From sequence record NC_048170.1: 64,000 nt of DNA. One strand, written 5' to 3'. The notes under the pieces were generated by a model. The model was not told the origin of the DNA. It saw only the letters and a program-made list of their open reading frames with translations, and did not search any database. The DNA comes from Escherichia phage vB_EcoM_Goslar. Made by a program: the position numbers and the translations under genes. Below, in pieces: positions 4,975 to 57,070 of this stretch (position 1 is the first letter of the stretch; each line of letters begins with the position of its first letter).

Positions 4975-7968
4975 ATGAGCGTAACCAACAAAGATCTTGC
5001 TGAACAGCTCAATCGCTATATGCTTTCACCTATTGAAATGCAGGCTGTTGCAAGCGATATGATCCGTTTGGCTTCTGATGGTGAATTAACCCTGGTTGAC
5101 CCCAGCTGTCCGTTTGTTTATCTGCTGGAGGTTGCAACGGCGACGGCGGCGAACCAGAACGCACGGGATGAATCCCGTGTTCGCGAACTGTATCCGAAGC
5201 TCGCAACGAACTGGAACCAGCTCTATCGTTGGATGTATGATGAGTCGTACGTTGGACGTTTCGCAATGCCGGGTAAAACGGAAATCATCTATTCGTTAGG
5301 GTATCAGGAAATCCTCGATCGCGCTGTAGAGATTCCCAACACCATCGCCTCCGATGATTTAAGCCGTTCTTACAGCCGTAAGTTAGTGATACCACGTACG
5401 ACGGCGTTTACGGTGGCTGGAATGGATTTCGGGTTGCATTATCCCATCGAAATCCAAGTACAAGCGCACGACCAGATCCGCGTCGTTTATAACACCGATA
5501 ACATCAGCCCATTGCAAACCTTGGAGAGTAACCAGGTTGAGTACGGGGTTGTTCGTGTAAAAGCGGGTAAAGTGTTGGTGATGCGTATTCCGCTGTTCCA
5601 GTTTAAAACACTGGTAAAAGATGTGCCGTTTAACAGCGTTCACGGGATGAACAGCAGCATTACCTTCGAAGATCAGTTTTACCATTGTCGTGCGTACATG
5701 TCGTCGGATAACGATACCTGGACGGAGATAGCGACAACACACAGTCAGCAGATCTACGATCCGTTAACACCAACCATCGCGTTACAAGTAGAAGGGAACA
5801 AACTTAACTGGCGTGTTCCTGAAATTTATTTGTCTCAAGGTACGATGGATAAAAGCACCATTCGACTTGAGGTGTTGACGACGAAAGGGAAAATCAGCGT
5901 CGACCCGTCTGATTACGACGTGACCGATTGGAAAGATAACTACATCGATTTGTCACCAAAAGCTGAACAGAAATACAGCGCGCCGCTAAGCGCATTCAAC
6001 ATTAAAGGGATTTATAGCGAAGGGGCATTGTCGGGTGGACGATCTGCATTAACGTTCGAGGAACAACGTGAACGTGTTATGGCGGGTGTGAACAAAACCA
6101 AGGTACCGATCACGGGAACGCAGGTAGAGCTGGTGCTTCAAGATGCGGGTTATGGGATGGTGACCACCATCGACAACGTAACCAATCGTTCGTTCCTGGC
6201 AACCCGAGATTTACCGCAATTGAGCGACAGCGTGCCGCAAGCCGGTTCGTTGATGGGGTCTTTCTATACGTCAGCTGCAGCATTGGTGAAAAGTAAGTTT
6301 GTCGCCGATAACGGCGATCGTATTACAATTAAACCTGACTGCCTGTATCGCGACAGTAACGGAAGTATCACGCTGTTGTCGGACGATGAAATTGACCGTA
6401 TTAATGCAGGCAACTCCGATGCGAAGTTGAACGCGGTAAACAACGCCATGTTGTTCTACAGTCCGTTTCATTACGTATTAGATGCAACAAGCGATTTCGA
6501 CATCCATGCTTATTACCTGGATGCCCCTAAGATCGGCACACAAGCATTCCTCGACGCGAACGAGACGATCCCGTTAACCGCTATGGTGACCGGATACCGT
6601 CTGGATCGTATCGCTGAAGGATATCGTCTAAGCCTCATTGTAGAAGGTAACGACGCATGGAAGGCGCTCGACGATAAAAACGTGCACATCCAGCTGGGAT
6701 TCAATCCGCGGGGTGAGGGTGATTATGCGACGATGCTGGCGTCACCGACAACCGATGAACAAGGTCGTCGTTTGTTCACCTTCGATATCACCACGAATTA
6801 CGATTTTACACGAATCCTGGCCGATGATTCCACGGCGTATGAACCGTATATCGCATTGACTTCGTTCTCGATGTATGAATCAACACCGCGGGATTATTGG
6901 GCATCACTGCAGCAGTATTTGGAAATCTTCCATGTGGTGACGGATTACGCGCCTGAAGATGTCGACGGTATCTTACACAGCGCTTCCGATAATTACCTGG
7001 TTAAGAAACTCACGCTTCAAAATGGGTATTGTTTCTACCGTGAACGTCTCACCGCAACCTTTGGTTATGATCTGGATGGTCTTTGGATGCGTTCTCGTAC
7101 GGTGGCCTCGGAGATCACGTATAAACGTTACACCGAGAACATTCCGTGGGTGTATGATGAAGATATCCCAGCGACGGATGAGACCGGTTCTGTTATCATT
7201 GAGCCGGGTGACGATGGTACGTTGTCGGTTAAATATCTGCATCGTAAAGGAGATCCGAAATTAAACAGTGATGGGAGCCAAGCCTATCGTTATCTGAAAG
7301 GCGACATCATGAAAGATAATTACGGTAATCCGATCCCCGTCGATGAACGTGAGGTTCTGCGTAACCTGGATATGTTCTTTATTGATGCATCGTATCTGTT
7401 AGCGAACGATACAGACGTGATTGAGTATCGTAATGCGATTCCTACGCAGCTTATCGAATGGATCCAGAACGATATCGACACGTTCAGGAATTTCTGTTAT
7501 GAAGAAACAGAGATTTCATTGTATCCTAAGCAATCGCTGGGGTATGTGGATGTTATTGTGGAAAACGGATTGGAAACGACGCTTCCTGCTGCCCTATCGT
7601 TCAACGTGACGCTGTACTTACCAGCTAAGCAATACGCTGACCTGGATTTACGTCAGGTCCTTCAAGCGATGGTATCGAAAGTCATCAATGAATGCTTAAC
7701 ATCCCGTACAGTGGCGAAAGCAGAAATGATCGCGATGATTCGTGAGGAGGGCGGTGACGACATCCTTAACGTTGAAATCGATGATTTTGGACCAGGTAAG
7801 AACCTCAGTGTTTATACCGCGAAGAACGATGGTGTTCGTTGTGCGGTGAAGAAAGAGCTTTATGTTAAAGCGGATGGTATCTTGTCCGTACGTGAAGCGA
7901 TCGATGTAAGTTTTGTGAAACATGCACAAAGCAACAGCACAGCGTTAGCGCAAGGCCTCCGTGTCTAA
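4975..7968 (+). CDS. Large hypothetical protein (997 aa), possibly virion structural
   Basis: ORF track; GAGGG RBS 9 nt upstream; starts 4 nt after previous stop. Confidence 0.85.
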   Translation: MSVTNKDLAEQLNRYMLSPIEMQAVASDMIRLASDGELTLVDPSCPFVYLLEVATATAANQNARDESRVRELYPKLATNWNQLYRWMYDESYVGRFAMPGKTEIIYSLGYQEILDRAVEIPNTIASDDLSRSYSRKLVIPRTTAFTVAGMDFGLHYPIEIQVQAHDQIRVVYNTDNISPLQTLESNQVEYGVVRVKAGKVLVMRIPLFQFKTLVKDVPFNSVHGMNSSITFEDQFYHCRAYMSSDNDTWTEIATTHSQQIYDPLTPTIALQVEGNKLNWRVPEIYLSQGTMDKSTIRLEVLTTKGKISVDPSDYDVTDWKDNYIDLSPKAEQKYSAPLSAFNIKGIYSEGALSGGRSALTFEEQRERVMAGVNKTKVPITGTQVELVLQDAGYGMVTTIDNVTNRSFLATRDLPQLSDSVPQAGSLMGSFYTSAAALVKSKFVADNGDRITIKPDCLYRDSNGSITLLSDDEIDRINAGNSDAKLNAVNNAMLFYSPFHYVLDATSDFDIHAYYLDAPKIGTQAFLDANETIPLTAMVTGYRLDRIAEGYRLSLIVEGNDAWKALDDKNVHIQLGFNPRGEGDYATMLASPTTDEQGRRLFTFDITTNYDFTRILADDSTAYEPYIALTSFSMYESTPRDYWASLQQYLEIFHVVTDYAPEDVDGILHSASDNYLVKKLTLQNGYCFYRERLTATFGYDLDGLWMRSRTVASEITYKRYTENIPWVYDEDIPATDETGSVIIEPGDDGTLSVKYLHRKGDPKLNSDGSQAYRYLKGDIMKDNYGNPIPVDEREVLRNLDMFFIDASYLLANDTDVIEYRNAIPTQLIEWIQNDIDTFRNFCYEETEISLYPKQSLGYVDVIVENGLETTLPAALSFNVTLYLPAKQYADLDLRQVLQAMVSKVINECLTSRTVAKAEMIAMIREEGGDDILNVEIDDFGPGKNLSVYTAKNDGVRCAVKKELYVKADGILSVREAIDVSFVKHAQSNSTALAQGLRV

Positions 7969-17189: not shown

Positions 17190-17257
17190 CCTTCGTTCTG
17201 TAAAAGTTTACTTCATGTAAGAATCGTGTGCGGCATAAGAGAGGCCGATACATCTAG

Positions 17258-18469
17258 ATGTTACATGAGGTTTACGAGATGGAAAAATCTATACATACTC
17301 AAACTGGAACTATTGACTATCGCGATTCAGCATATTTGCCGTACACAAATCATCGTTATCGTATATTTGAAGATGGCGAGTTGTACGACTATAAAGAAGA
17401 TAGGGTCGTCCCTTACGAAGTTGTAGACGGTGTCCCTTATGTTGAAATCGATTGGTATAGAGGCATTGGAAAATACGATCTCGGTATGATCATTCTCACC
17501 GTTCTTGAACGGGTTGCTTTACCAGATCACCTTTACGATGAAATTGAATCGTTGTTTGTGGACGGAGATCCGACTAACTTTTCGTATAGCAATCACATCT
17601 ACCGTTTCCGTAATGGGCCGTTAGAAGTTGAGGGATTCGAAGGTTATTGTTATATTCCGTTTGCATCTCGTTACGCGATAAATAAAGAAGGACATTGTAT
17701 TAGTCTTCTTTCGTTGGATCCTATCACGTGGACGAAAACGGTTCAGCAAGGCACACGTCTTGGCGGATACGCTTATCGTAAAGTGGTTCCCGACAGCGGG
17801 TTTACACCGCAGTTATATCGTCACCGAGCTATCATGTTAGCGTTTACGAGATATGATGCTAACGTTGTGAACTTAACTGTAAATCATAAAAACGGAATTA
17901 AAGGTGACGATTGGTTTGACAACCTCGAATGGGCGACATATGCCGAGAACAATCAACATGCTCGTATGGCAGGGTTGTGTATAGGTACGTCAAAACCTGT
18001 TTTGGTTTATGATTACCGTGCACGAATCGAACGTCGTTTTAATAGTATCGCAGAAGCGGAACGTGCTTATCCGTACGTGCCGAAAGGACGTTTCAAATGG
18101 TGGGTAAACAATCCTCCGAAACGTATCCCAGAATGCGATTTATACATCAAGTTTGCCACGGACAATACGCCTTGGCCGGAGTGGAAACTTGGAGAAGATC
18201 GTCGTGTCGAGGACACCGACGGTCGCGGTATTCTCGCTATTAATAAAGAGACGAACGAACGACATGTGTTTCCATCAGTAACTGCTGCCGCAAATGCGTT
18301 AGGAATCTCCTGGATTACCGTAAGACGTCATTGCGATCGTCGTGCAGTACCTACGAAACAGCCTTGGTGTTTTCGTTACGCTGATGATATCGCTGCCATG
18401 CCTGATTTCGATGTTAATAAATTAGTTCCTAAGAAGAAGCGTGTATTTAATGTCCCATTAGAACGATAA
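17258..18469 (+). CDS. HNH homing endonuclease (403 aa)
   Basis: HNH motif LTVNHKNGIKGDDWFDNLEWATYAENNQHA; AGAGAGG RBS; location between polymerase gene segments. Confidence 0.8.
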   Translation: MLHEVYEMEKSIHTQTGTIDYRDSAYLPYTNHRYRIFEDGELYDYKEDRVVPYEVVDGVPYVEIDWYRGIGKYDLGMIILTVLERVALPDHLYDEIESLFVDGDPTNFSYSNHIYRFRNGPLEVEGFEGYCYIPFASRYAINKEGHCISLLSLDPITWTKTVQQGTRLGGYAYRKVVPDSGFTPQLYRHRAIMLAFTRYDANVVNLTVNHKNGIKGDDWFDNLEWATYAENNQHARMAGLCIGTSKPVLVYDYRARIERRFNSIAEAERAYPYVPKGRFKWWVNNPPKRIPECDLYIKFATDNTPWPEWKLGEDRRVEDTDGRGILAINKETNERHVFPSVTAAANALGISWITVRRHCDRRAVPTKQPWCFRYADDIAAMPDFDVNKLVPKKKRVFNVPLER

Positions 18470-18504
18470 CAGGTCCCCCTACTTGTAATGAGTGGGTGAA
18501 CTCT

Positions 18505-18905
18505 CTTTAATTGCTGGAAACCTTTAATGCCCCTCCACACCACAACGCAATCCGAAAGGGTAAACGTGATGGTTGTCGAAAGACAGAAAAAAGTTGGAGG
18601 GGATTACCTATGTTGCAATAAAAGCCACCGCTTTCTTGGATAACGAAAGATGACGGTGGTACTAAGGGTAGAAGATAGAAATAAGGTAACCGTAGCAGCG
18701 AAGACCCTACGGACTGTCGTGACCGACTCGATGAGTTGGCGTGGTTAACACGGACAGGCTACGGGTAACGTTCAACGACCATCCGGTTGCGCGGAGTAGG
18801 AGAATTAGGATGTTCTCTGAAAAGGGAGAAGTCGGTCGAGGTGTTGTAGAAACACCATTCGGTTTGCTAACGCAAACCTAAGGCAGGCTAAGATATGGTC
18901 TATTT
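18505..18905 (+). ncRNA. Candidate group I intron catalytic core (P-, Q-, R-, S-like elements)
   Basis: R-like GTTCAACGACCA (~18770) and S-like AAGATATGGTC (~18890) with a compensatory P7 pair (GACCA/UGGUC versus consensus GACUA/UAGUC); P-like AATTGCTGGAAA (~18509); Q-like AACCGTAGCAGC (~18687); several hairpins; no ORF on either strand. Confidence 0.5.
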
Positions 18906-18948
18906 TTCGTTGTGTTCATGTATAGAAATTACTGAACCATCGTAAGAG

Positions 18949-19203
18949 CTCGATATATCTTCAAGCTATCCAAATGGGCAGATACTGCTCAATCTATCCA
19001 GAGCATGTGTTTTTCGTGAGCTCTCACGCATTGAGGGCGTCTCTGACTATCAATTCAGGAAGCTAGGTATCAACTTTATCACTGGAGGTAAAACGAACGC
19101 TGTAGACTTCTGTAGAATCGTTTATAAAGCGCCATCGATGTTTGAACTTTTAGAACATTTCGATGCGACGCGTCCAAAAGAGGAAGCGCGGACCATCGAA
19201 TGA
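18949..19203 (+). CDS. Candidate downstream exon: start-less open frame with polB motif-A-like sequence (LDISSSYPNGQ), stop at 19201-19203
   Basis: 86-codon open frame with no start codon until its last 21 codons; DISSSYP resembles DxxSLYPS; joining after 17186 to 18949 would be in frame and obey U at the 5' splice site and G at the intron 3' end. Confidence 0.3.
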   Translation, partial: LDISSSYPNGQILLNLSRACVFRELSRIEGVSDYQFRKLGINFITGGKTNAVDFCRIVYKAPSMFELLEHFDATRPKEEARTIE

Positions 19204-19288: not shown

Positions 19289-19774
19289 TTATGCGCGTTC
19301 GTTGCCAACCGTTACTTTGTAGTCAGCGTCGGTTAAGAAAATAGACAGGAATCCATGTTCTTTGCAAATCTTACTAAGGATGTCAGCAATGATTTCGTTG
19401 ATCATCGGCTTGTTTGCAAGGGCATAGATGTACCCGGGTGTAAAAGAAAGTGCGTGATTGATCATAGGCTCATGAGAAGCCAAGATAAGGATCACGTGAT
19501 GCTTCCCATCGTCGGTAACGACCGCTTGCGTAGACACGAAGAAATCAGTGAAGCAGCAGCGATCACAGGCTTTAGGTATATACAAGTCACCCAGAGCTTC
19601 GTCACGTGCTTTTACGTGTGTTTCAGGGGTAATGCTGCTAAGTTGATCTTCAGCGAGATCCAAGACATCCTCAATCGTTTTAAGAATAGCGTTGCGGAAA
19701 TCCTCACGGTAGAATGGGATGATATCACGATCGTTCATGTAATCGCCGGATTCGATAGTAAAGTTGATGTTCAT
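19289..19774 (-). CDS. Hypothetical small protein (161 aa)
   Basis: ORF track; terminator immediately downstream; preferred over the overlapping + strand ORF 19355..19777. Confidence 0.75.
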   Translation of the reverse strand: MNINFTIESGDYMNDRDIIPFYREDFRNAILKTIEDVLDLAEDQLSSITPETHVKARDEALGDLYIPKACDRCCFTDFFVSTQAVVTDDGKHHVILILASHEPMINHALSFTPGYIYALANKPMINEIIADILSKICKEHGFLSIFLTDADYKVTVGNERA

Positions 19775-19884
19775 TGAATGCTCCTAGTGGTTATGTCGAT
19801 TGATTGATGTGTTAATTTATGTTTGATGGGGTATACTTGAAACTACAAATAAGGCTCTTGGCGTTGCTGTTATGGTTCAGTTCT

Positions 19885-20334
19885 TTATCCCTTGTTGGAT
19901 TCGTCAATATACTTGGTGTCGTAAGACAAATGCTGAATTAATTTTCTAGGTCTGATGAAAATACGACATGTGATAAACACATCGGGATCGTATTGTTCCA
20001 CGCAACGTCCGAAGGCTCGTTTTGCGGACTGACGCATCAAGGCTAATTCCTGATCGTTCATCTCATCATCAAATTCGATGAGTATTGTTATTTTATCGGG
20101 AAATAAATAGATAGAGTAATCGCTACCGATATCACCGTCGTCAAAACGATAATCGTTGTGGTAATGGCGGAGCTTACCTTCGTGCTCCGCCTGGTACCAC
20201 CCGACGATACTATCAAGGCCCATACCCAGGCGTCCGAATGCCTGATTAATAATATCATCAACGACGGATGCAGGTGTGGGGCCATTGAATAATCTATCCA
20301 GACATTTTTTCATCGATTTGGTTTTCACGTTCAT
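19885..20334 (-). CDS. Hypothetical small protein (~149 aa; probable start at the second Met, MNVKTK)
   Basis: ORF track 19885..20361; AGGAAAAG RBS before the internal ATG. Confidence 0.7.
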   Translation of the reverse strand: MNVKTKSMKKCLDRLFNGPTPASVVDDIINQAFGRLGMGLDSIVGWYQAEHEGKLRHYHNDYRFDDGDIGSDYSIYLFPDKITILIEFDDEMNDQELALMRQSAKRAFGRCVEQYDPDVFITCRIFIRPRKLIQHLSYDTKYIDESNKG

Positions 20335-20363
20335 TGTTTCTTTTCCTGTTATAGTCAACATAT

Positions 20364-20398
20364 AGCCCTTCCCCGGCCTTGACGGCTAGGGAAGGGGC
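20364..20398 (-). terminator. Stem-loop (AGCCCTTCCCC / GGGAAGGGGCT) between tandem genes
   Basis: Inverted repeat read directly. Confidence 0.5.
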
Positions 20399-20423
20399 TA
20401 GGTACGTTATTTATGCTTCATTA

Positions 20424-20909
20424 TCAACCAGAGATGTTGCACGTTTCTTCTTCGTCGAGTGCGTACTCCATTGTGTAGAATTCATAACCATCGGAAAACT
20501 TGAGTGTTACTGTAATAGGGAAATCGCACGGCATAGCTGATTTCTTAAATGCGTTATTAGCAACATCAGCCAACCGACGTATAGCATCAGTCCCGCTGAC
20601 ACTGAATGGTAGTTGTATGTTGATAAGGATGCGGTGCTTGTAAACATAGAAAACAACGGTGCTGTCAAGATAAACGCTATGGAACGGTATTGTTGGGATG
20701 CGTTCCACGATGGTAAAATACGTCCCATCAATATCACTATTTCCCACTGACCACTTATCGGATTTGCGTAGATTTTCTTTGAGGAATTCGACGCTTCGAG
20801 TGACAGCCTCAGTAGTAGGTGCGACGTATGCGTCTTTATGCGTGTCGAAAAGTTCGTTGACGTTAGATTTGAATGAATACGCTGTTGCCATTTTGATAAC
20901 ACCGGTCAT
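20424..20909 (-). CDS. Hypothetical small protein (161 aa), paralogous to 20952..21449
   Basis: ORF track; shared C-terminal pattern (MP..ITVTLKFSDGYEFY versus MPVTLTISGHDGSGLFEFHY). Confidence 0.75.
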   Translation of the reverse strand: MTGVIKMATAYSFKSNVNELFDTHKDAYVAPTTEAVTRSVEFLKENLRKSDKWSVGNSDIDGTYFTIVERIPTIPFHSVYLDSTVVFYVYKHRILINIQLPFSVSGTDAIRRLADVANNAFKKSAMPCDFPITVTLKFSDGYEFYTMEYALDEEETCNISG

Positions 20910-20951
20910 GTTTAATTGATGAGTATTCCATCTAGTAAGGGAATACGTTAT

Positions 20952-21449
20952 TTAGCTATCGATCTCGCCATCTTCAGGATGGTAGTGGAATTCGAATAGC
21001 CCTGAACCATCGTGCCCGCTGATTGTTAATGTAACAGGCATATCGAATCCTCGTACGCGTTTATGAAAACACTCCGCTAACTTACGTTCAGCGTAATCTA
21101 CTATTTCATCGGTTGCTTCGACGCCACCTGTTACGCTGAGCGTGATATCGATACTAATGATGTTATCATGCAACGCAAACCGCCAACGATCGATACGATT
21201 ATTATCTTCAGCAGGCGTCTCGTTTACAAGATAGATTTTATCGTCAGCTGACAAAGCGGGACTCCAGCAACGTTCGTTTATTAATTTCGCCTGGAGTTTT
21301 AGTATCGTCTGATCAATAATATCCCAACACGTAACCAGCGTGACGTCAGGCACTGAATTGAGAAGGGCGAGCACTTTATCCTTTATTTTAAGTGCTTCCG
21401 CAGGACGCCCGCAAATACCATGCATTTCAACTTTCTTATCCATATTCAC
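20952..21449 (-). CDS. Hypothetical small protein (165 aa), paralogous to 20424..20909
   Basis: ORF track; similarity to neighbour. Confidence 0.75.
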   Translation of the reverse strand: MNMDKKVEMHGICGRPAEALKIKDKVLALLNSVPDVTLVTCWDIIDQTILKLQAKLINERCWSPALSADDKIYLVNETPAEDNNRIDRWRFALHDNIISIDITLSVTGGVEATDEIVDYAERKLAECFHKRVRGFDMPVTLTISGHDGSGLFEFHYHPEDGEIDS

Positions 21450-21495
21450 TTCTTCACTTCTTTCTTAATCTAAATGTTAGTTGGGGATGGGATGC

Positions 21496-22128
21496 TTACA
21501 TGCTTTCTAACATATCGATGATCATGGAACCCATACCGAAACTCGGTCTCTCGCCGATGTACTCAGCAAGCTGACGATGAACGTCTTTTGGATTTCCTTC
21601 TTCACCGTCGGCATCGATGTAGACCGAAAAAGAAAATGAATCGGAATCCACGCTGATAACCAGACGGCGTTCATTGCGTTCCTTGAGTGTATCGACAATA
21701 GCCGCTTTCAGTACCGCGATCGCATTCATCGCGTGCAAGATGTCTCCATCGGGTTTCGGTAGATCGATCTTTTCTTTCAGGTCGATATTGATGTTGGTTA
21801 CAATTGGATTGAGGTCGACCTTGACATAATCGTTAGGGAAAACGCGAATAATTGCACGATCGATATCTGAACCGTAAAAGTCAACACGTGGCTTTAACAC
21901 TTCTTTGTTTGGATCCATGTTTTCATCCATCCCGGCCTGCAAGAAACGTTCTACGTTATCCAGTTCACGATAAACTGACGCTTCGATTTCTTTCAGATAG
22001 TTGGCTGCGGTTTCATGTTCTTTACGCAGCTCGTCTTTAAGGAGCTGTACGGTGACTTCACTAGAACGAATGCTGTTCGCGAATTGGGTAATTGACATAT
22101 CGAATTCCTTAAATTCTCTTGAGTTCAA
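21496..22128 (-). CDS. Hypothetical protein (210 aa)
   Basis: ORF track; AAGGAA RBS. Confidence 0.8.
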   Translation of the reverse strand: MNSREFKEFDMSITQFANSIRSSEVTVQLLKDELRKEHETAANYLKEIEASVYRELDNVERFLQAGMDENMDPNKEVLKPRVDFYGSDIDRAIIRVFPNDYVKVDLNPIVTNINIDLKEKIDLPKPDGDILHAMNAIAVLKAAIVDTLKERNERRLVISVDSDSFSFSVYIDADGEEGNPKDVHRQLAEYIGERPSFGMGSMIIDMLESM

Positions 22129-22797: not shown

Positions 22798-23199
22798 TTA
22801 AATGTCGTGGACGGCATTGCCGTTTAACCAGCAATACAGTTTAACGCGACAGGAATACCGCTTCGTTGCAGCAACCATTTCATCGCGTAAACGCTGGTAG
22901 ATTTCATCCTGGTGTTCACGTTCAATGGGGTAATCAGCCCAACATTCGATCATGACGTCACCATTAGTCAGAATCGTCGTACGCATCCTGTCCTGGACAC
23001 GACGATCTTTCCCAGCATTAGGGAAATACATCCCTTCAGTACGAATAAGGTCGCCGCAGGGCATGACTAACCATTCGTTCGTTTTGCCGGTATTCTTATA
23101 ATCCATTACAGCTTGCATTGCGGTGTCAACGCTAAAAGAAACATAATTCCAAACGGATGTCCAACGATAGATTGCGGGTTGTTCGAGTGTTTCGTTCAT
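22798..23199 (-). CDS. Hypothetical protein (133 aa)
   Basis: ORF track. Confidence 0.75.
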   Translation of the reverse strand: MNETLEQPAIYRWTSVWNYVSFSVDTAMQAVMDYKNTGKTNEWLVMPCGDLIRTEGMYFPNAGKDRRVQDRMRTTILTNGDVMIECWADYPIEREHQDEIYQRLRDEMVAATKRYSCRVKLYCWLNGNAVHDI

Positions 23200-23254
23200 G
23201 GAGTGCTTTTCCTATTTTTATTTTCTGCACAGGATAAATTCAACGGCATAAAGC

Positions 23255-23285
23255 CCTTCCCTGCCCTTATATGGGGCGGGAAGAG
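23255..23285 (-). terminator. Imperfect stem-loop (CTTCCCTGCCC / GGGCGGGAAG)
   Basis: Inverted repeat in a 210-bp intergenic region. Confidence 0.45.
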
Positions 23286-23412
23286 TTTATGACCGCAATG
23301 AGAATCTCTCACGACAAGCTCACGACGATTATCGCATCACCCCGCGAGTGAGGGAGATCAGGATCACCTCCTACGTCGTAACGACAGCAATCCCGTTACG
23401 TCGCATTAGACG

Positions 23413-24051
23413 TTATGCAAAGCGACGCATGTAACCTGCCAGGTAGTTACGTGTATCGAAGTAGGCAATTTCAGGAATTGCGATATTAAGGTCGATAGCA
23501 CGGATTTCAACTTGGCGACGGCTTTCATCATAGATCGCATCCATCAGACGCAGTACTGTCAGGAAAGCCATGCGGGTATGGTAGTCCAGCGGCATGTTAT
23601 CGATACCGCGATACAGATAACGGTTTGCGTTAAATGCCCCTTCGCTGTTATCTTTCCAGATCTTCAGAATATCAGCAAAGGCGGTGCGGAAAACCTCAGG
23701 ATTATCCACATCCAGTAACGCACGGAAAGCAGACATTAAAGACCGCTGATGACGGATCAACGACTGCGGTGTTTGCGGCATGGTTGGACCCATTTCTTCC
23801 GCATATTTCTGGAACGGGGCAACCAGGGTTGCGGCACGAGAAGCCACGATAGAAACAGCAGGCGATTCTTTCACCGCCGGTTTCGCAGGCTTTTCTTCAA
23901 CAACGGTTTCCTTCTTCTCAACAGCGACCGTTTCCGGCTGTGCTACAACGTTGTTGGTCGGAGCAGCAGCCGCACCATTTTCCACGGCGGTCTCTACTGC
24001 TGTAATCTTTTCGTCCATTTGTGCGGAACGTTGGTCTTTATTCTTGCTCAT
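23413..24051 (-). CDS. Hypothetical protein (212 aa) with Ala/Pro/Glu/Val-rich N-terminal region
   Basis: ORF track. Confidence 0.8.
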   Translation of the reverse strand: MSKNKDQRSAQMDEKITAVETAVENGAAAAPTNNVVAQPETVAVEKKETVVEEKPAKPAVKESPAVSIVASRAATLVAPFQKYAEEMGPTMPQTPQSLIRHQRSLMSAFRALLDVDNPEVFRTAFADILKIWKDNSEGAFNANRYLYRGIDNMPLDYHTRMAFLTVLRLMDAIYDESRRQVEIRAIDLNIAIPEIAYFDTRNYLAGYMRRFA

Positions 24052-24076
24052 GTTTATTTCCTTTCATTTAACAAGG

Positions 24077-25378
24077 TTAACTAATATAAAGTTCAGGATC
24101 GTAAGGCGCTAACGATACACTGGCGTTATGCATTGCTTTCATCATAGTGTTCATGAAAACGTTGTTTACACCGGTGATCTCCGCCCCGATCGCGTCTGGG
24201 GTTGGAGCCATCGCGTTACCGCAACAGGTAGCACAGTATTCCAACGGACCCGCTTTACAGCGCTGAGGATCGCGTAACTTGATGGTTTGTCCTTCCAAGG
24301 AAGCAAGTAATTCAGCATCAATAAGTTTAAGCGCCGCACCGTCGATCATGTAACGGCCGACAAGCAGCTTATCTTTGATATGATCGCGGTTTACCGTGAA
24401 CAGAATATGTTCTTGGGTACCACAGTCGTCCATCGTGATTTTAAGGTTCTGTGTCGCACGTTGTGATTCTTTCGCCGTCTGTCCCGCTAAAGCGGTCAAC
24501 GCACCACGTGAGAACGAACCCGCACGTGCACTGTTGTTGTACTCCGCCCAATGGTCGACACGCATCCCTTCAGCCAGGCTGTGCGTGATAACGTTACGTT
24601 TACCAGGGTCAACGAAGTCGGCTTCAACCCCCATCATGATGTGCGTTTTCTTTCGAGTATTACCGAAACTCTTGCCAGGGTTAATATAGAACCCTTCCGA
24701 TTCGTCGCCCTTAAAGGATTCCTTATCCATTTTGGTTAGCGTGGCTTCGAGTTTAATAAGTTCTTCAGGCGTGAACTTACCTTCCTCTTGCAGACGCGCT
24801 AACTCTTTATCACGATAGGCAATAATATCGTCATCGACCGTTAACGCTTTATCGCTCATCGATGGGACAATTAAACGGTTGATGGCGGTTAATGCGCTGA
24901 TATTGTTGGTGAATTTCTTCACTTCGCTTGCGTACAGCGGGCCAATAGGACGTTCGTTAGGATCGGGTATCCCCTCTTCGGGATCGTCCGCTACGCGCGG
25001 CGCAATCAGTGATTCCAGTGTACCGCTGGTCAACCGTCCTGCCTGATATTCAATCTGAATACCGAAAGCATCATAAAGGACGTACATATTGAACAACGCT
25101 TCACCGAAGGTTGTGGTGGTCGTATTCTTAACCGACGGTAGATCACCAGGTGCGAGCTCCAATGGCTCCCAGAAACTCAACAAGGGTTTTGTTGGCTCGG
25201 TTTCCCATTGATGTTCCTCACCGTCGATGGTAACCGTAACGACGTTACCTTGACGACGTAATTTGGGCTGATACTTCTCAGCACCACCTTCCGTAAAAGC
25301 AAATGCGTCGTTAATCCATTCAAGATAACGGTAGTGCCCTTCACGCATCGCGTAAAGGAAATATTCACGAGGTGTCAT
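24077..25378 (-). CDS. Multisubunit RNA polymerase beta-prime C-terminal fragment (bridge helix / trigger loop region)
   Basis: NSARAGSFSRGALTALAGQTAKESQRATQNLKITMDDCGT matches the E. coli beta-prime segment [42 protein letters not shown] recalled from memory; ORF is only 433 aa, so a split subunit. Confidence 0.65.
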   Translation of the reverse strand: MTPREYFLYAMREGHYRYLEWINDAFAFTEGGAEKYQPKLRRQGNVVTVTIDGEEHQWETEPTKPLLSFWEPLELAPGDLPSVKNTTTTTFGEALFNMYVLYDAFGIQIEYQAGRLTSGTLESLIAPRVADDPEEGIPDPNERPIGPLYASEVKKFTNNISALTAINRLIVPSMSDKALTVDDDIIAYRDKELARLQEEGKFTPEELIKLEATLTKMDKESFKGDESEGFYINPGKSFGNTRKKTHIMMGVEADFVDPGKRNVITHSLAEGMRVDHWAEYNNSARAGSFSRGALTALAGQTAKESQRATQNLKITMDDCGTQEHILFTVNRDHIKDKLLVGRYMIDGAALKLIDAELLASLEGQTIKLRDPQRCKAGPLEYCATCCGNAMAPTPDAIGAEITGVNNVFMNTMMKAMHNASVSLAPYDPELYIS

Positions 25379-25391
25379 GTAACAACTCCTT

Positions 25392-26270
25392 TTAAACCTG
25401 GGTCAGGTCGCCGCGACGTGAAACGAACTCTGATAACGCTCGGGTTGCTTCTTTGGATTCTTCAGCCATCGGGAAGTTTGCGGTAATAAGTTCTCGTAAG
25501 ACGGGAATAATTTCATTATCTTCGAGATCAGAAGCTAAAGCGAATGCAATCAGTTCTTGGGTGTATGCATACGGTTGCTGGCGTAATGTAGCCAACTGAT
25601 TCCGACACTGCGCCATCAGCAAGTCTAGTGGAACCGCTATCGTACCCCCTTCATCAATATACTGGCTGAACACCGGTGGGAACGCATCGCTGATGACACG
25701 AATTCGTCGACGAATATGATCCGGAATCAGGACGTTTTCTTCGTCGGTGATATTTTCGCTGTCTTTCTCCAGCTTCTTGGTCAGTACCTGTTGAATGCGT
25801 GGAAGTAAGCTTGAATGTACGAAATTGATTAACGGTGTTACGTTAACAGCATCAACGCCGTAAATATGATGCGCGCATTCCGCCAGCACTTCAGCTGTGG
25901 TGTAGTCTTCATCTTCAACGATAGCGAGTAGAAAAGCGGTATCGTCGTGTGTTTCCAGGTCTAATAACGTAGACGCCAGTGCATGAAGATATTTCAGGCT
26001 ATCCAGAGTTAGCTGTCCTTCGTTAATTCGGATCCCGAAGGCAAGCAATTGTTGTTTATAAAGTTCGATACATCCGTTTGTTAAAATGATATCTAATTCG
26101 TTTAAATCGTATTGTTCCCCAGCACCTGATAACATCGTACTGCAGAACGTTTCCAGTTGTTCGCATTTAAAATCTTGGTATAAACGATGCATGCAGTGCT
26201 GTAACAGCGTACGCCTTGTTTCAGGGATCTTACCTTCTAACAAAGCCAAGACGGAATCAATCATATCCAC
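25392..26270 (-). CDS. Hypothetical protein (292 aa)
   Basis: ORF track. Confidence 0.8.
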   Translation of the reverse strand: MDMIDSVLALLEGKIPETRRTLLQHCMHRLYQDFKCEQLETFCSTMLSGAGEQYDLNELDIILTNGCIELYKQQLLAFGIRINEGQLTLDSLKYLHALASTLLDLETHDDTAFLLAIVEDEDYTTAEVLAECAHHIYGVDAVNVTPLINFVHSSLLPRIQQVLTKKLEKDSENITDEENVLIPDHIRRRIRVISDAFPPVFSQYIDEGGTIAVPLDLLMAQCRNQLATLRQQPYAYTQELIAFALASDLEDNEIIPVLRELITANFPMAEESKEATRALSEFVSRRGDLTQV

Positions 26271-26360
26271 TCCGATGCGGTAAATGTCTACTAGCTCTCA
26301 TAATCTATTGAAGAAACTACCAGCTTACGCCAACTTAGATTAATCAGGAGTAACCATCCC

Positions 26361-26834
26361 ATGCCAGTTTCATCCAAACCAAGAAAAAAATCCGTAGGAA
26401 ACCCTAAAGCTCAGGAAACAACAGCAATTCGTTGGGACGAGTTACGTGAACCTATCGAAAACTGCGAATTGTTATTGGGCACCCTGGGTGCGGCTATTTA
26501 CCAAGCGACGCAACCCTGTCGTTTACGATTAACCCAAAACAAACGTGATGAGTTCGTTGCGTTATCAACGAGCACGAATAAAGATCTGACCGAACTTCAA
26601 ACCGAGTTGACGACGATCAAGAACTCCATTACGCCGATGTATGGTAAAGAAGTCGATGAACAAAGTATTCTGTTACAGTACAACTACGGGATGTCGTTAA
26701 TGAACATCCTGGAACGCGCATCCGATATTCTGCGTCCTGACGTTGCACGCCTGAGCCAACTGCGTGTTGAAGGGATGGAGAACCAGATCCGATTCGCTAA
26801 CAGTGTTAAATCTCAAGGAGCCACCGAAGCATGA
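26361..26834 (+). CDS. Hypothetical protein (157 aa)
   Basis: ORF track; CAGGAG RBS. Confidence 0.8.
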   Translation: MPVSSKPRKKSVGNPKAQETTAIRWDELREPIENCELLLGTLGAAIYQATQPCRLRLTQNKRDEFVALSTSTNKDLTELQTELTTIKNSITPMYGKEVDEQSILLQYNYGMSLMNILERASDILRPDVARLSQLRVEGMENQIRFANSVKSQGATEA

Positions 26835-28495
26835 GCGAACAAGAAAAAGAAGTCGTGACGAATCAGGAAGCCACCGAACGTTCAGAGTCGTCCGTTGAAA
26901 CTACGATTCCGGCAAGTTCCGAGCCGGTTGGTTCCGCACAGCAGGAAAGTAAAGAAGATGTAGTGGCTCCAGAAGCAACCCGTGAAGAAGAACCATCACA
27001 TCCACCGCTAATCGATTTCTCGAAGGCGACGATACGTTTCCAATGCGAAGACATTCGTCCTAAGAGTCCGAAGAAAACAAAACGTCAGCCGTTGGTGTTA
27101 CCGCTGTATTCTCCGCGTGTACAGACAGCGTATTACCGGGAATACATCAACGAAGCAATGGATACCGTACAAGCCATTGTCGCTCAACGCGGTAAACCGA
27201 CAGACGAACAGTTTGATAAATTCAGTAAAGCGGTGGTGCAATCGGTTGCTGATGGACAATATCATCCGCGTGGTCCAGCTCACGATCGTGCGTTGGAACG
27301 TAAGGGCAGTCAGTGGACTAACGTGCCCGTAGACTCATCGGGTGTTGGTCGCGTTATTCCTGGCATCCCGCAACCGAACCATATTCCTGATGATGTCGAA
27401 GCGCCGCTGACAGGAACCGATGCGATCTATTTTGCCATCCGTAATACGAAATCAGGTGCGCCTGCGGTAATGCCGTTATGGCATAGCGGTATTAAGCTGC
27501 AGTTTAATCCGCCGTCAAATGAACGTGTCGCAATTATGCACGAACGTATTGCCCGCGATAAAATCCTGGGTGGACGTGATAGTACCGGTTTCCTGTTTTC
27601 GGCAACCTCGATTATCACCATGAAGCACGCAATCGAATTAGCATTAGAATGCTGCTACATGGCCAACGTACCTAACCTGGATATCCAGCGTTTGAAAGAC
27701 ATTATTCCGGTTACCGATGTTCCAGCGTTATTGTTGAACGTGCTGGTAACCATGTATCCGTACGGATATCCTTACGTACAGACCTGCTATCAGAATCCAG
27801 AAACCTGCGACTATCGTGTTGAAGATACCGTAAGCTTTGCGAAACTCTATCAAGTTGACAACAGCGCAATAACCAAACGTATGCGACAGATCATGACCGA
27901 AGGTCCGGTCATGACAGATGAACTTTTGCGTGAGTATGCAAACGAACTGGGTGAAACAAACTCCCGTACGTTGGATCTGTCCGACAACGGTTCTGTTATC
28001 ATTGAACTTGAAGTACCGAAGATTTCACGTCAGATCGCCATGGGCGAACGCTGGTTAAGCGATACCCTGGAAGATCTGCGTGATATTCTATCGCGTCCGT
28101 CAATGACCGAAGAAGAGCGTGATCGTGTTATTCGTGAACGTCAGTTCTATAGCTGGATGCGTCAGTATGATGCATGGATCAAATCCATGCACGTGTCAGT
28201 AAACGGCACCATGCGTCGTGTAAGCGATGCGGATACAGCAACGGTATTAGCGCAGCTGTCTCGTGATAGCGATCTTCGTGAACGCTATATCGATGGGTTG
28301 ATGCAATTCATCGGTGATTCGACGATTGCGCTCGCAGCGATGCCTGCCTGGAAATGTCCGAAATGTAATACCGATATTGCCGACAATCTGCGTGACCAGA
28401 AATACTACGATCTGATTGCTTTGGATGTACCCCAGCTTTTTTTTACCCTAAACTCCGTCCAATCTCTTCAGGAGGGGATGGACGCGGTATTCTAA
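26831..28495 (+). CDS. Hypothetical protein (554 aa) with acidic low-complexity N-terminus
   Basis: ORF track; AAGGAG RBS; ATGA overlap with upstream gene. Confidence 0.85.
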   Translation: MSEQEKEVVTNQEATERSESSVETTIPASSEPVGSAQQESKEDVVAPEATREEEPSHPPLIDFSKATIRFQCEDIRPKSPKKTKRQPLVLPLYSPRVQTAYYREYINEAMDTVQAIVAQRGKPTDEQFDKFSKAVVQSVADGQYHPRGPAHDRALERKGSQWTNVPVDSSGVGRVIPGIPQPNHIPDDVEAPLTGTDAIYFAIRNTKSGAPAVMPLWHSGIKLQFNPPSNERVAIMHERIARDKILGGRDSTGFLFSATSIITMKHAIELALECCYMANVPNLDIQRLKDIIPVTDVPALLLNVLVTMYPYGYPYVQTCYQNPETCDYRVEDTVSFAKLYQVDNSAITKRMRQIMTEGPVMTDELLREYANELGETNSRTLDLSDNGSVIIELEVPKISRQIAMGERWLSDTLEDLRDILSRPSMTEEERDRVIRERQFYSWMRQYDAWIKSMHVSVNGTMRRVSDADTATVLAQLSRDSDLRERYIDGLMQFIGDSTIALAAMPAWKCPKCNTDIADNLRDQKYYDLIALDVPQLFFTLNSVQSLQEGMDAVF

Positions 28496-28587: not shown

Positions 28588-28917
28588 ATGAAGCTGAACA
28601 TCGAAATGGGTATTGCGTACGATACCATGTTTGGCTTGTACGATCGTGTTAACGACTGGACGCCGTTGAAATGGGTGGCTCAGCATCCCGCTGAAGATCC
28701 CTGGGACAGATTAGGGATTAAACCCTTAATCGAGGATTATGTCCGATTCGGTATTAAAGAGTTCATGACGCTGGATGCGTTTTTAAAAGCACCGTATCCT
28801 TACGCGCAAACGGTACTCAAAATCGCACAAGACGAACTGCGGAAACGTAGTGCGGTACTGGACGACGATGAGGACAAGTTACGACGAGAAGAAGAACGTT
28901 TACGAAACGGAAAATAA
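28588..28917 (+). CDS. Hypothetical protein (~110 aa; start uncertain)
   Basis: ORF track 28558..28917; track start is probably over-extended. Confidence 0.6.
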   Translation: MKLNIEMGIAYDTMFGLYDRVNDWTPLKWVAQHPAEDPWDRLGIKPLIEDYVRFGIKEFMTLDAFLKAPYPYAQTVLKIAQDELRKRSAVLDDDEDKLRREEERLRNGK

Positions 28918-28918
28918 A

Positions 28919-29428
28919 ATGGCGAGATTTACCAGTTTGATTGGATTGGACATTTGGGAAACACCGGCTGACGTTCGGGTTATTCCTGTCAACACCGTCG
29001 GTGTGATGGGACGTGGTCTTGCCAAGCAGGCTGCCGAGCGCGTGCCCGGTCTTCTTGAAGCGTACCGCAAGCAATGTCGAGATGGGTTTACGGTGGGTGA
29101 AGTCGTGTCATATCAGCATGGCGAGAACGATCAGCTCACCTACGTGTTGTTTCCATCAAAATCGGATTGGCGTGAAAGAACACGACGCGAGTATATCGTT
29201 AACGGTTTACTGGCGTTAAAAGCATGGTTATTGGAGCTTCAGTTCGAAAGAGACGGCTTCTCATACCACCGTCCGGCTGAACCGTTGATTGTCGCAATTC
29301 CTCCGGTTGGTTCTGGTTGCGGTAATATCGGTTACGGACAATCCGAAACAATCCAGCCTCAGTGGGTACGCGCACAAATCAAACAGTATCTTGCCACCGT
29401 ACCGAACGTTCATTTCTACTTGTTCTAA
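28919..29428 (+). CDS. Putative macro-domain (ADP-ribose binding/hydrolase) protein
   Basis: VIPVNTVGVMGRGLAKQ and AIPPVGSGCGNIGYG resemble the two glycine-rich macro-domain motifs; start at internal ATG (MARFTSL), track start 28850. Confidence 0.5.
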   Translation: MARFTSLIGLDIWETPADVRVIPVNTVGVMGRGLAKQAAERVPGLLEAYRKQCRDGFTVGEVVSYQHGENDQLTYVLFPSKSDWRERTRREYIVNGLLALKAWLLELQFERDGFSYHRPAEPLIVAIPPVGSGCGNIGYGQSETIQPQWVRAQIKQYLATVPNVHFYLF

Positions 29429-39413: not shown

Positions 39414-39600
39414 TAATCAAATTAAAATGTAAAACGCCTCGAAACCGGAGTGCGATTCGAGGTAAACGTAAACAGTCCAGACGACCGCATAAAATTCCGC
39501 GCATATTGCCCCTCTACCCCGACAAAGCGAGATAGAGGGGAGGATAATACGATTATGCTACTACACTCCAAAGTTCATGGGGCGGTAATCGCCCCATCGG

Positions 39601-56577: not shown

Positions 56578-56590
56578 AACGAGATTTCTC

Positions 56591-57058: not shown

Positions 57059-57070
57059 AGCGCCACCCCA

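What the first reader, a model, noticed from the sequence alone, without database searches (positions are those of the whole stretch)
24077..25378. Stand-alone RNA polymerase beta-prime fragment points to a phiKZ-like nucleus-forming jumbo phage
A 433-aa ORF carries the bridge-helix/trigger-loop block of the beta-prime subunit, including the DDCGT signature, as a separate polypeptide. Split multisubunit RNA polymerases are, as far as I know, characteristic of phiKZ-like jumbo phages. That would place this enterobacterial phage in that group and predict further RNA polymerase fragments elsewhere. The flanking ORFs (23413..24051 and 25392..26270) show no motif I recognise.
Basis: partly seen in the sequence, partly recalled or inferred. 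Interest (0 to 1): 0.6.

Follow-up and report, generated by a model that had tools for sequence, protein, structure and literature searches.

The report
Goslar phage virion RNA polymerase piece

Summary
The 433-aa ORF at 24077..25378 (-) is real and has a strong ribosome-binding site. It matches PHROG 2962 (phiKZ gp80 / SPN3US gp42 family) over its full length, E = 2.7e-106. A family profile hits only beta-prime chains in the PDB (best E = 3e-7) across the bridge helix, DDCGT and zinc-cysteine cluster.

The fragment ends inside the first trigger-loop helix. It is therefore the "Mid-beta-prime" piece of the five-polypeptide virion RNA polymerase, not a complete bridge-helix/trigger-loop block.

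The window is phage vB_EcoM_Goslar, or a phage with identical proteins at every locus compared:
- The downstream ORF is 100% identical to the solved Goslar capsid decorator gp77.
- A baseplate protein matches the Goslar baseplate entry over its full length.
- The computed masses of four ORFs equal those published for Goslar gp077, gp078, gp079 and gp081.

Goslar is 237 kb and an experimentally established nucleus-forming chimallivirus. Its gp78 is reported in virions with four other virion-polymerase pieces, and chimallin and PhuZ are also reported. These facts come from the literature, because those genes lie outside the window. The closest phages in the collection searched are under 34% identical because that collection appears to lack Goslar.

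Verdict: observation confirmed, interpretation supported, already known, low interest.

The parts
24077..25378 (-). Goslar gp78 (HOV27_gp078, YP_009820763.1): Mid-beta-prime polypeptide of the virion RNA polymerase, 433 aa
   Evidence: ORF listing. PHROG 2962 full length, E = 2.7e-106. tblastn to phiKZ gp80 and SPN3US gp42. Computed mass 48,219.1 Da against 48,219.6 Da for HOV27_gp078, labelled vRNAP in Table S4 of bioRxiv 10.64898/2026.04.21.720040.
25386..25391 (-). Shine-Dalgarno AAGGAG, 7 nt upstream of the ATG at 25378
   Evidence: Read directly from the sequence.
24599..25378 (-). N-terminal ~260 residues. Conserved within the phage family. Presumed equivalent of the beta-prime region between the double-psi beta-barrel split site and the bridge helix.
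   Evidence: Family alignment. AF2 pLDDT is mostly 57-91 over residues 1-160 and drops below 50 in the 160s-170s and after ~220. Foldseek alignments to nvRNAP beta-prime-C chains span 415-484 columns but TM-scores are low. The correspondence to cellular beta-prime is inferred, not shown.
24449..24529 (-). Bridge helix (about residues 284-310), with invariant R285, S288, R291, T295 and G299
   Evidence: HMM alignment to beta-prime residues ~751-810. Long helix 284-310 in the model. Invariant columns.
24416..24430 (-). DDCGT motif (residues 317-321). C319 is the first cysteine of the beta-prime zinc site.
   Evidence: Regex hit. Aligned to the ...DCGT... motif of bacterial beta-prime. C319 is invariant in the family.
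24224..24259 (-). Cys cluster C374, C382, C385 (RxPxxCK...YCxxCxG), completing the zinc-binding site
   Evidence: Aligned to 'RSPITCKTRRGLCAKCYG' of beta-prime. The cysteines are invariant in the family.
24119..24193 (-). First trigger-loop helix (about residues 396-420), with invariant M413 and H417. The protein ends 16 residues later.
   Evidence: Helix 396-420 in the model. Invariant M and H. hhalign aligns the C-terminus to gp74-family residues up to ~393 of 677. The equivalence to E. coli M932/H936 is my own manual alignment, so it is inferred.
23413..24051 (-). Goslar gp77, capsid decorator protein (downstream neighbour)
   Evidence: 212/212 residues identical to PDB 11FG/11MK/11ML 'Capsid Decorator gp77'. 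Mass 23,860.0 against 23,860.2 Da.
25392..26270 (-). Goslar gp79, virion protein of the phiKZ gp79 family (upstream neighbour). The annotated start is probably the ATG at 26264, giving 290 aa.
   Evidence: PHROG 5038, E = 7.2e-24. phiKZ gp79 and the Eowyn neighbour fall in the same PHROG. The 290-aa form has mass 32,808.1 against 32,808.4 Da for HOV27_gp079.
26831..28495 (+). Goslar gp81, homologue of phiKZ gp77. Oppositely oriented conserved neighbour, detected in virions.
   Evidence: tblastn to phiKZ gp77 (E = 2e-33) and Eowyn ORF077. PHROG 4585. Mass 62,587.1 against 62,587.8 Da.

Best explanation
The ORF encodes gp78 of Escherichia phage vB_EcoM_Goslar. It is the middle beta-prime polypeptide ('Mid-beta-prime', the phiKZ gp80 / SPN3US gp42 family) of the phage's five-piece virion RNA polymerase.

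The polypeptide starts after the split that follows the beta-prime catalytic barrel. It supplies the bridge helix, the zinc-binding DDCGT/Cys cluster and the first trigger-loop helix with its conserved Met and His. The rest of the trigger loop and the beta-prime C-terminus are presumed to come from a separate small polypeptide of the SPN3US gp244 / phiKZ gp176 family.

The protein assembles with N-beta-prime, C-beta-prime, N-beta and C-beta and is packaged into the capsid. It is injected with the DNA and transcribes early genes independently of the host polymerase, before the chimallin nucleus forms.

Shown here: homology, domain content, the end point, synteny and identity with Goslar. Taken from the literature: virion packaging and the partner subunits. 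Inferred: catalytic roles of individual residues and completion of the trigger loop in trans.
For: - Family membership: full-length PHROG 2962 match, E = 2.7e-106. phiKZ gp80 falls in the same PHROG.
- Distribution: homologues in 309 jumbo-phage records, including phiKZ gp80 and SPN3US gp42.
- Beta-prime homology: the family profile hits beta-prime chains at residues ~751-903, E = 3e-7, and nothing else among the 60 listed.
- Fold: the top matches are nvRNAP beta-prime-C chains and bacterial beta-prime.
- End point: hhalign against the gp74 family places the C-terminus at about residue 393 of 677.
- Conservation: bridge-helix, cysteine, Met and His residues are invariant across a family only ~30% identical overall.
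- Synteny with phiKZ and Eowyn.
- Identity with Goslar: gp77 is 100% identical to PDB 11FG. The baseplate wedge protein matches 11LX over its full length. Four ORF masses agree within 0.7 Da with Table S4.
- Literature: the virion polymerase has five polypeptides including a Mid-beta-prime (PMC7598289). SPN3US gp42 is 'beta-prime M', and it disappears from heads when gp241 is knocked out (PMC5105663). Goslar gp78 was detected in virions with gp196, gp205, gp207 and gp210.
Against: - Pfam finds nothing.
- Single-sequence similarity to cellular beta-prime is marginal, E ~ 0.03-0.05.
- The AF2 model is poor across the bridge helix and trigger helix, with pLDDT below 50, and fold-match TM-scores are only 0.2-0.3.
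- A short profile of the C-terminal 68 residues did not recover the trigger helix in beta-prime. It produced spurious histone H2B matches.
- No partner subunit, chimallin or PhuZ lies inside the window. My searches for chimallin on related contigs failed.
- The copy of the PDB searched holds no chain of this family, so the assembly has no direct structural support.
Confidence: 0.95

Rival explanations
1. The ORF is the beta-prime C-terminal subunit of the second, non-virion polymerase (phiKZ gp74 / AR9 chain D family), which transcribes late genes inside the phage nucleus.
For: It is paralogous to that family. PHROG 3015 matches at E = 7.3e-11 over residues 261-389. hhalign to the gp74 family gives 92% probability. 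The best Foldseek hits are nvRNAP chain D of AR9 and phiKZ.
Against: The PHROG 3015 match covers only 130 residues, whereas PHROG 2962 matches the full length at E = 1e-106. gp74-family proteins are ~640-680 aa and continue ~285 residues beyond the point where this ORF stops. The gene sits in the gp77-gp80 virion-gene neighbourhood. Goslar gp78 is labelled vRNAP and was detected in virions.
Confidence: 0.02
2. The ORF is a decayed, non-catalytic remnant of a captured rpoC gene that now serves only as an internal head protein.
For: Identity to cellular beta-prime is only ~15%. Pfam RNA polymerase domains are not detected. The homologue in phiKZ is annotated 'structural head protein'.
Against: The residues that matter for polymerase function are invariant across a family that is only ~30% identical overall. 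These are the bridge-helix Arg/Ser/Thr/Gly, four cysteines, and the trigger-helix Met and His. In SPN3US all virion-polymerase pieces enter the head together and depend on the beta subunit gp241. Early chimallivirus transcription is attributed to the injected virion polymerase.
Confidence: 0.02
3. The window comes from a Goslar-related phage found only in bacterial genome assemblies (for example the proposed 'Bapsvirus' or another Goslarvirus species), not from Goslar itself. On this reading the Goslar literature would apply only by homology.
For: Contigs of 237.5-239.5 kb that are 94.5-97% identical occur in Salmonella/E. coli-type assemblies and in metagenomes. Such assembly-associated lineages have been described (PMC12768965).
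Against: gp77 is identical at all 212 residues to the deposited Goslar protein. Four ORFs reproduce the Goslar protein masses to within 0.7 Da. The other contigs differ from the window by 3-5% in DNA. Even if this rival were true, the functional assignment would not change.
Confidence: 0.05

Closest known systems
Pseudomonas phage phiKZ gp80 (virion polymerase beta-prime fragment, 'structural head protein')
   Same: Same PHROG (2962), full-length alignment and the same beta-prime motifs. Both end inside the trigger loop. The upstream gp79-family gene and the gp77-family gene on the opposite strand are the same.
   Different: Only 30.7% identical. phiKZ gp80 carries a 10-residue insertion between the zinc-site cysteines. 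The downstream neighbour differs: phiKZ gp81 is 473 aa, against the 212-aa capsid decorator here.
Salmonella phage SPN3US gp42 ('beta-prime M' of the virion polymerase)
   Same: Same family and nearly the same length (431 against 433 aa). There is genetic and proteomic evidence that it is packaged with the other virion-polymerase pieces.
   Different: About 29.6% identity. It belongs to a different genus (Seoulvirus).
Non-virion polymerase beta-prime C-terminal subunits (phiKZ gp74, PDB 7OGP/9RJS chain D; AR9, PDB 7S00/7S01 chain D)
   Same: A paralogous beta-prime segment with the DCGT-like motif, the cysteine cluster and the first trigger helix. These are the best structural matches.
   Different: They are ~280 residues longer and contain the whole trigger loop and the beta-prime C-terminus in one chain. 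They are not packaged in virions and they act late, inside the nucleus.
Bacterial RNA polymerase beta-prime (RpoC), residues ~750-940 in E. coli numbering
   Same: Bridge helix, DDCGT and the zinc-binding cysteines align with a profile E = 3e-7.
   Different: RpoC is one ~1400-aa chain, whereas here the segment is a separate 48-kDa polypeptide. No Pfam RNA polymerase domain passes threshold. The phage enzyme has no alpha or omega subunits.
Naturally split beta-prime of cyanobacteria (gamma/beta-prime) and of archaea (A'/A'')
   Same: The N-terminal boundary of this fragment is reported to coincide with the cyanobacterial split after the catalytic barrel (review PMC7598289).
   Different: The second break, inside the trigger loop, is described in that review only for the jumbo-phage virion polymerase. 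I did not test this against cellular genomes.

Membership tests
Virion polymerase Mid-beta-prime family (phiKZ gp80 / SPN3US gp42 / PHROG 2962) | Full-length sequence similarity to the family profile | tested here: met
   E = 2.7e-106, residues 1-432 against profile 1-432 of 433. phiKZ gp80 scores in the same PHROG. 272 of 309 phage records cover at least 80% of the query.
Virion polymerase Mid-beta-prime family (phiKZ gp80 / SPN3US gp42 / PHROG 2962) | Contains the beta-prime bridge helix, the DDCGT motif and the zinc-site cysteines | tested here: met
   Profile against PDB: all 60 listed hits are beta-prime, best E = 3e-7, beta-prime residues 751-903. Invariant columns.
Virion polymerase Mid-beta-prime family (phiKZ gp80 / SPN3US gp42 / PHROG 2962) | Lacks the NADFDGD catalytic barrel and ends inside the trigger loop (~430 aa) | tested here: met
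   No NADFDGD-like motif anywhere in the window. All nine family members end 13-17 residues after the invariant His. hhalign places the end at gp74 residue ~393 of 677.
Virion polymerase Mid-beta-prime family (phiKZ gp80 / SPN3US gp42 / PHROG 2962) | Conserved gene neighbourhood (gp79-family gene upstream, gp77-family gene on the opposite strand) | tested here: met
   PHROG 5038 is shared with phiKZ gp79 and its Eowyn counterpart. tblastn of the 554-aa ORF to phiKZ gp77 gives E = 2e-33. Annotated maps.
Virion polymerase Mid-beta-prime family (phiKZ gp80 / SPN3US gp42 / PHROG 2962) | Protein is packaged in the virion | not testable with these tools
   Literature only. Goslar gp78 was detected by LC-MS/MS of virions, with estimates of roughly 14-33 copies. 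The SPN3US and phiKZ homologues are also virion proteins.
Virion polymerase Mid-beta-prime family (phiKZ gp80 / SPN3US gp42 / PHROG 2962) | Forms an active polymerase with four partner polypeptides | not testable with these tools
   The partners (Goslar gp196, gp205, gp207, gp210) lie outside the window and are known only from the literature.
Chimalliviridae (nucleus-forming phiKZ-like jumbo phages) | Genome larger than 200 kb | tested here: met
   Near-identical contigs of 237,533 to 239,535 bp. Goslar is 237,307 bp.
Chimalliviridae (nucleus-forming phiKZ-like jumbo phages) | Encodes chimallin (Pfam PF25677) | tested here: inconclusive
   No match to any chimallin-annotated family among the window ORFs screened. 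Pattern-based searches did not retrieve it from the related IMG/VR contig. The literature reports Goslar chimallin gp246.
Chimalliviridae (nucleus-forming phiKZ-like jumbo phages) | phiKZ-type virion genes | tested here: met
   The baseplate protein is homologous to PHIKZ087 (PDB 9XQS, E = 7.5e-171). PF25618 PhiKZ_gp91 and PF12699 phiKZ_IP lie at and just beyond the window start. PHROGs 3248, 3196, 3239, 3187 and 2871 also match.
Chimalliviridae (nucleus-forming phiKZ-like jumbo phages) | Two sets of split multisubunit polymerase genes | tested here: inconclusive
   Only one fragment lies in the 64-kb window. The remaining pieces are known only from the literature.
Non-virion polymerase beta-prime C-terminal subunit (phiKZ gp74 family, PHROG 3015) | A ~640-680 aa chain carrying the complete trigger loop and the beta-prime C-terminal regions | tested here: not met
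   The ORF is 433 aa. It aligns only to gp74 residues 282-393 of 677. The PHROG 3015 match is partial, E = 7.3e-11.
Cellular RpoC (Pfam RNA_pol_Rpb1 domains) | Passes Pfam gathering thresholds for Rpb1 domains | tested here: not met
   No Pfam family at E <= 1.

The most novel reading that the evidence does not exclude
The conserved break inside the trigger loop may be an adaptation rather than a neutral accident of gene fission. Helix 1 lies on gp78 and the remainder on a separate small polypeptide. The catalytic trigger loop would then exist only once the five pieces reassemble. That could keep the packaged enzyme inactive in the capsid and let small polypeptides pass through the tail before reassembling in the early infection vesicle. 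The PDB copy searched holds no structure of any virion polymerase of this family, so the point is untested.
Probability: 0.12. Interest if true: 0.45.

Novelty: already known. Interest (0 to 1): 0.1.

Why it matters
For the scan, this resolves the window. It is phage Goslar, a model nucleus-forming chimallivirus, and the flagged ORF is its published virion-polymerase subunit gp78. No new biology follows from that.

There are two small gains. RefSeq still calls the gene 'hypothetical protein HOV27_gp078', so a sequence-level description of what it carries is a useful annotation. It holds the bridge helix, the zinc site and half a trigger loop. The result also shows that a tool-free reader can place a jumbo phage correctly from one diverged polymerase motif. 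The architecture of the five-piece virion polymerase, including a trigger loop divided between two chains, remains structurally uncharacterised.

Tried and rejected
- Pfam scan of the ORF and its neighbours gave nothing useful.
- Megablast of 23000-27000 against the phage collection found no match. Goslar's accessions MK327938 and NC_048170 are absent from that collection. This explains why the best tblastn hit was only 33.9% identical and why I first took the phage for an undescribed lineage.
- I searched for chimallin on contigs related to the window, without success. A two-sequence chimallin alignment found 3 unrelated loci. A profile search of the 5.8-billion protein set gave 28 chimallins. 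The promising one, P0012, sits on a 236.5-kb contig of a different phage. P0012 alone found nothing in IMG/VR. A 27-sequence alignment gave 80 loci, none on IMGVR_UViG_3300011560_000001. A hand-made degenerate pattern gave 62 loci, again none on that contig. These failures reflect motif divergence and the caps on results, not absence of the gene.
- I considered that the window belonged to the proposed 'Bapsvirus' of PMC12768965. I dropped this once PDB identity to Goslar proteins appeared. The supplements of that paper did not contain the assembly accessions.
- The 1198-aa tail protein and the 292-aa gp79 have no PDB relative.
- A 68-column profile of the C-terminus gave spurious histone H2B matches instead of confirming the trigger helix.
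- A regex scan for further polymerase motifs (NADFDGD, GGLPR-like, beta motifs) found nothing credible.
- No tRNA genes, and no Rfam family at gathering threshold, in the window.
Full report
**1. The observation**

The ORF at 24077..25378 on the minus strand is present as described, 433 aa with an ATG start. Its ATG is preceded by AAGGAG at a 7-nt spacing, immediately after the stop codon of the upstream gene. The DDCGT motif is at residues 317-321, DNA 24416..24430.

Pfam finds nothing. PHROGs gives a full-length match to phrog_2962 'RNA polymerase beta subunit', E = 2.7e-106, residues 1-432 against profile 1-432 of 433. It also gives a partial match to phrog_3015, E = 7.3e-11, residues 261-389.

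A single-sequence search of the PDB gives only marginal hits, E ~ 0.03-0.05. All the top ones are bacterial beta-prime chains aligned at about residues 745-900, plus chain D of the AR9 non-virion polymerase.

**2. Homology to beta-prime, tested with profiles and structure**

I aligned the ORF with six metagenomic homologues (28-64% identical), phiKZ gp80 and its Eowyn counterpart. The profile of this alignment hits 74 PDB sequences at E <= 0.01. All 60 listed are beta-prime. The best is E = 3e-7, with profile positions 264-397 aligned to beta-prime residues 751-903. That stretch covers the bridge helix, the DCGT motif and the RSPxxCK...CxxCxG zinc-site cysteines.

These residues are invariant in a family that is otherwise about 30% identical: R285, S288, R291, T295, G299, C319, C374, C382, C385, M413 and H417.

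An AlphaFold2 model from a seven-sequence alignment is mediocre, with mean pLDDT 61.9 and values below 50 across the bridge helix and the C-terminus. Foldseek against the PDB nevertheless ranks the beta-prime-C chains of the AR9 and phiKZ non-virion polymerases and bacterial beta-prime chains in the first 15 places. Probabilities are 0.85-1.0 for the first 13 and 0.5-0.6 for the two phiKZ entries ranked 14 and 15. TM-scores are only 0.2-0.3.

**3. Where the fragment ends**

All nine family members stop 13-17 residues after the invariant '...M-K-A-M-H'. hhalign against the non-virion gp74 family aligns columns 319-434 of the family with gp74 residues 282-393 of 677, at 92% probability and E = 6e-7. 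About 285 residues of gp74 therefore have no counterpart.

The last helix of the model is 396-420. In my own manual alignment to E. coli beta-prime, 'DAIG...MMKAMH' corresponds to 'EAIG...TMRTFH'. That makes it the first trigger-loop helix, with M932 and H936 conserved and R933 replaced by K. This last step is inferred. A short C-terminal profile did not confirm it and returned spurious histone H2B hits.

The fragment therefore carries the bridge helix and only the first half of the trigger loop. This agrees with the literature. The jumbo-phage virion polymerase is described as five polypeptides: N-beta-prime, Mid-beta-prime, C-beta-prime, N-beta and C-beta (PMC7598289). SPN3US gp42 (431 aa) is 'beta-prime M', and the missing C-terminal part is attributed to gp244, the homologue of phiKZ gp176 (PMC5105663).

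**4. Relatives and synteny**

tblastn against 50,697 phage records finds 309 records, all below 60% identity and at most 33.9% (Klebsiella phage Eowyn). All those listed are phiKZ-like or PBS1/AR9-like jumbo phages. The phiKZ hit is PHIKZ080, annotated 'structural head protein', and the SPN3US hit lies at 39365-40657.

The neighbourhood is conserved:
- The upstream 292-aa ORF (25392..26270) is in PHROG 5038, as are phiKZ gp79 and the Eowyn neighbour.
- The 554-aa ORF on the opposite strand (26831..28495) is homologous to phiKZ gp77, tblastn E = 2e-33.
- The downstream 212-aa ORF shares PHROG 18957 with the Eowyn gene downstream of its gp80 homologue.

**5. Identity of the phage**

Megablast found nothing in the phage collection. 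The protein nevertheless occurs at 99% identity on a 238,000-bp ENA contig. A window segment also matches exactly in IMG/VR contig IMGVR_UViG_3300011560_000001, which is 237,533 bp.

Window-edge proteins occur on contigs of 237.8-239.5 kb in NCBI assemblies GCA_020395325.1 and GCA_024608925.1 and in further ENA assemblies. These are 96-97% identical in DNA. One Logan contig is 100% identical over 12 kb.

Two papers describe jumbo phages hidden in Salmonella and E. coli isolate assemblies, including 237-239 kb Goslarvirus genomes. Goslar is 237,307 bp with 46.53% GC and encodes a DNA ligase and a thymidylate synthase. These features match the window and its flanks. Goslar's accessions are not in the phage collection, which explains the low top identity.

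Three results settle the identity:
- The window's 997-aa ORF (4975..7968) matches PDB 11LX 'Baseplate wedge protein' over all 997 residues at 2265 bits. 11LX is the Goslar baseplate entry.
- The 212-aa ORF next to the finding is identical at 212/212 residues to 'Capsid Decorator gp77' of PDB 11FG, 11MK and 11ML.
- Computed average masses of four ORFs in this five-gene block match Table S4 of the Goslar virion paper, as tabulated below. The 290-aa row is the 292-aa ORF started at the ATG at 26264.

| Window ORF | Computed mass (Da) | Published mass (Da) | Goslar protein |
|---|---|---|---|
| 212 aa | 23,860.0 | 23,860.2 | HOV27_gp077 |
| 433 aa | 48,219.1 | 48,219.6 | HOV27_gp078 |
| 290 aa | 32,808.1 | 32,808.4 | HOV27_gp079 |
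| 554 aa | 62,587.1 | 62,587.8 | HOV27_gp081 |

In that table gp078 (YP_009820763.1, named 'hypothetical protein' in RefSeq) is labelled vRNAP.

**6. What it does**

According to the Goslar virion study, all five virion-polymerase subunits (gp78, gp196, gp205, gp207, gp210) are present in virions. Chimallin (gp246) and PhuZ (gp234) were also detected. Chimalliviruses inject the virion polymerase with the DNA into an early-infection vesicle, where it transcribes early genes.

In SPN3US, loss of the beta subunit gp241 removes gp42 and the other pieces from heads. This indicates that the complex assembles before packaging.

My reading is that gp78 supplies the bridge helix, the zinc site and trigger helix 1 of this enzyme. 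Homology, content, boundaries and identity are shown here. Packaging and partner subunits come from the literature. Residue-level roles and completion of the trigger loop in trans are inferred.

**7. Rivals**

- A non-virion polymerase subunit is excluded by length, by the best-matching family, by synteny and by the virion proteomics.
- A decayed, non-catalytic remnant is unlikely given the invariance of the functional residues.
- A sister Goslarvirus rather than Goslar itself is unlikely given the identical gp77 and the four identical masses. It would not change the assignment.

**8. Limits**

No other polymerase fragment, chimallin or tubulin lies in the 64-kb window. My attempts to fetch chimallin from related contigs failed for technical reasons. 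For those genes I rely on the published Goslar work.

**9. Verdict**

The feature is an already published gene of a well-studied phage, so interest is low.

Noticed in passing
window 15690-19161 (+): The family-B DNA polymerase gene (phiKZ gp82 homologue) is interrupted. Exon 1 is 15690-17186 and exon 2 is 18946-19161 by tblastn with phiKZ gp82 and Eowyn ORF082. Between them lie an HNH/NUMOD1 homing-endonuclease ORF at 17258-18469 and a full-length match to Rfam group I intron RF00028 at 18405-18923. That match scores 44.7 bits, E = 1.2e-9, just under the gathering score of 50.
   Followed up: partly
window 18756-18801; L017:13473-13518: A 46-bp stretch inside the putative intron is 89% identical to an intergenic stretch of an unrelated 236.5-kb chimallivirus contig. 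That stretch lies just downstream of the gene next to chimallin, which in phiKZ is the non-virion N-beta-prime gene gp55. This suggests related mobile introns sitting in different essential genes of different phages.
   Followed up: no
window 19289-22128 (-): A run of five small ORFs (158-210 aa) has no PHROG match. This is the most divergent part of the locus among otherwise 96-97% identical relatives, with blocks at 81-91% identity and gaps in the alignment. It looks like a hypervariable accessory region a few genes downstream of the capsid decorator gene.
   Followed up: no
window 34471-38861 (-): A 1324-aa tail-fibre ORF matches 53 PHROG tail-fibre families from unrelated phages. It is followed by a lambda-gpK-type tail-fibre assembly chaperone (Pfam Caudo_TAP, E = 3e-20). 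The region has raised GC, 0.50-0.51 against ~0.46 elsewhere. It looks like a horizontally exchanged host-range module.
   Followed up: no
window 55596-57391 (-); L014:15451-17246: Four consecutive small ORFs (106-167 aa) carry only 'faint' precomputed Pfam hits to sigma-70 region 4, HTH and Myb-like DNA-binding families. They could be transcription factors in a phage whose polymerases lack sigma, but the hits are too weak to interpret.
   Followed up: no
window 28850-29428 (+): This ORF has a Macro domain hit (PF01661, E = 3.9e-5, 24.0 bits against a cutoff of 22.0). It may be an ADP-ribose-binding or -removing protein, conceivably a counter-defence function.
   Followed up: no
loci L011-L016; proteins P0001, P0002: Genomes 96-97% identical to the window appear as ~238-kb contigs in assemblies deposited at NCBI (GCA_020395325.1, GCA_024608925.1), as a fragment annotated in a Salmonella Chester assembly, and in several ENA metagenome assemblies. 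This fits recent reports of lytic jumbo phages persisting in isolate cultures.
   Followed up: partly
PDB 36za chain 7, against window 23413-24051: A chain identical to residues 66-212 of capsid decorator gp77, present in 60 copies, is labelled 'Inner-peripheral baseplate spoke gp220' in entry 36za. The molecule name looks inconsistent with the sequence.
   Followed up: no
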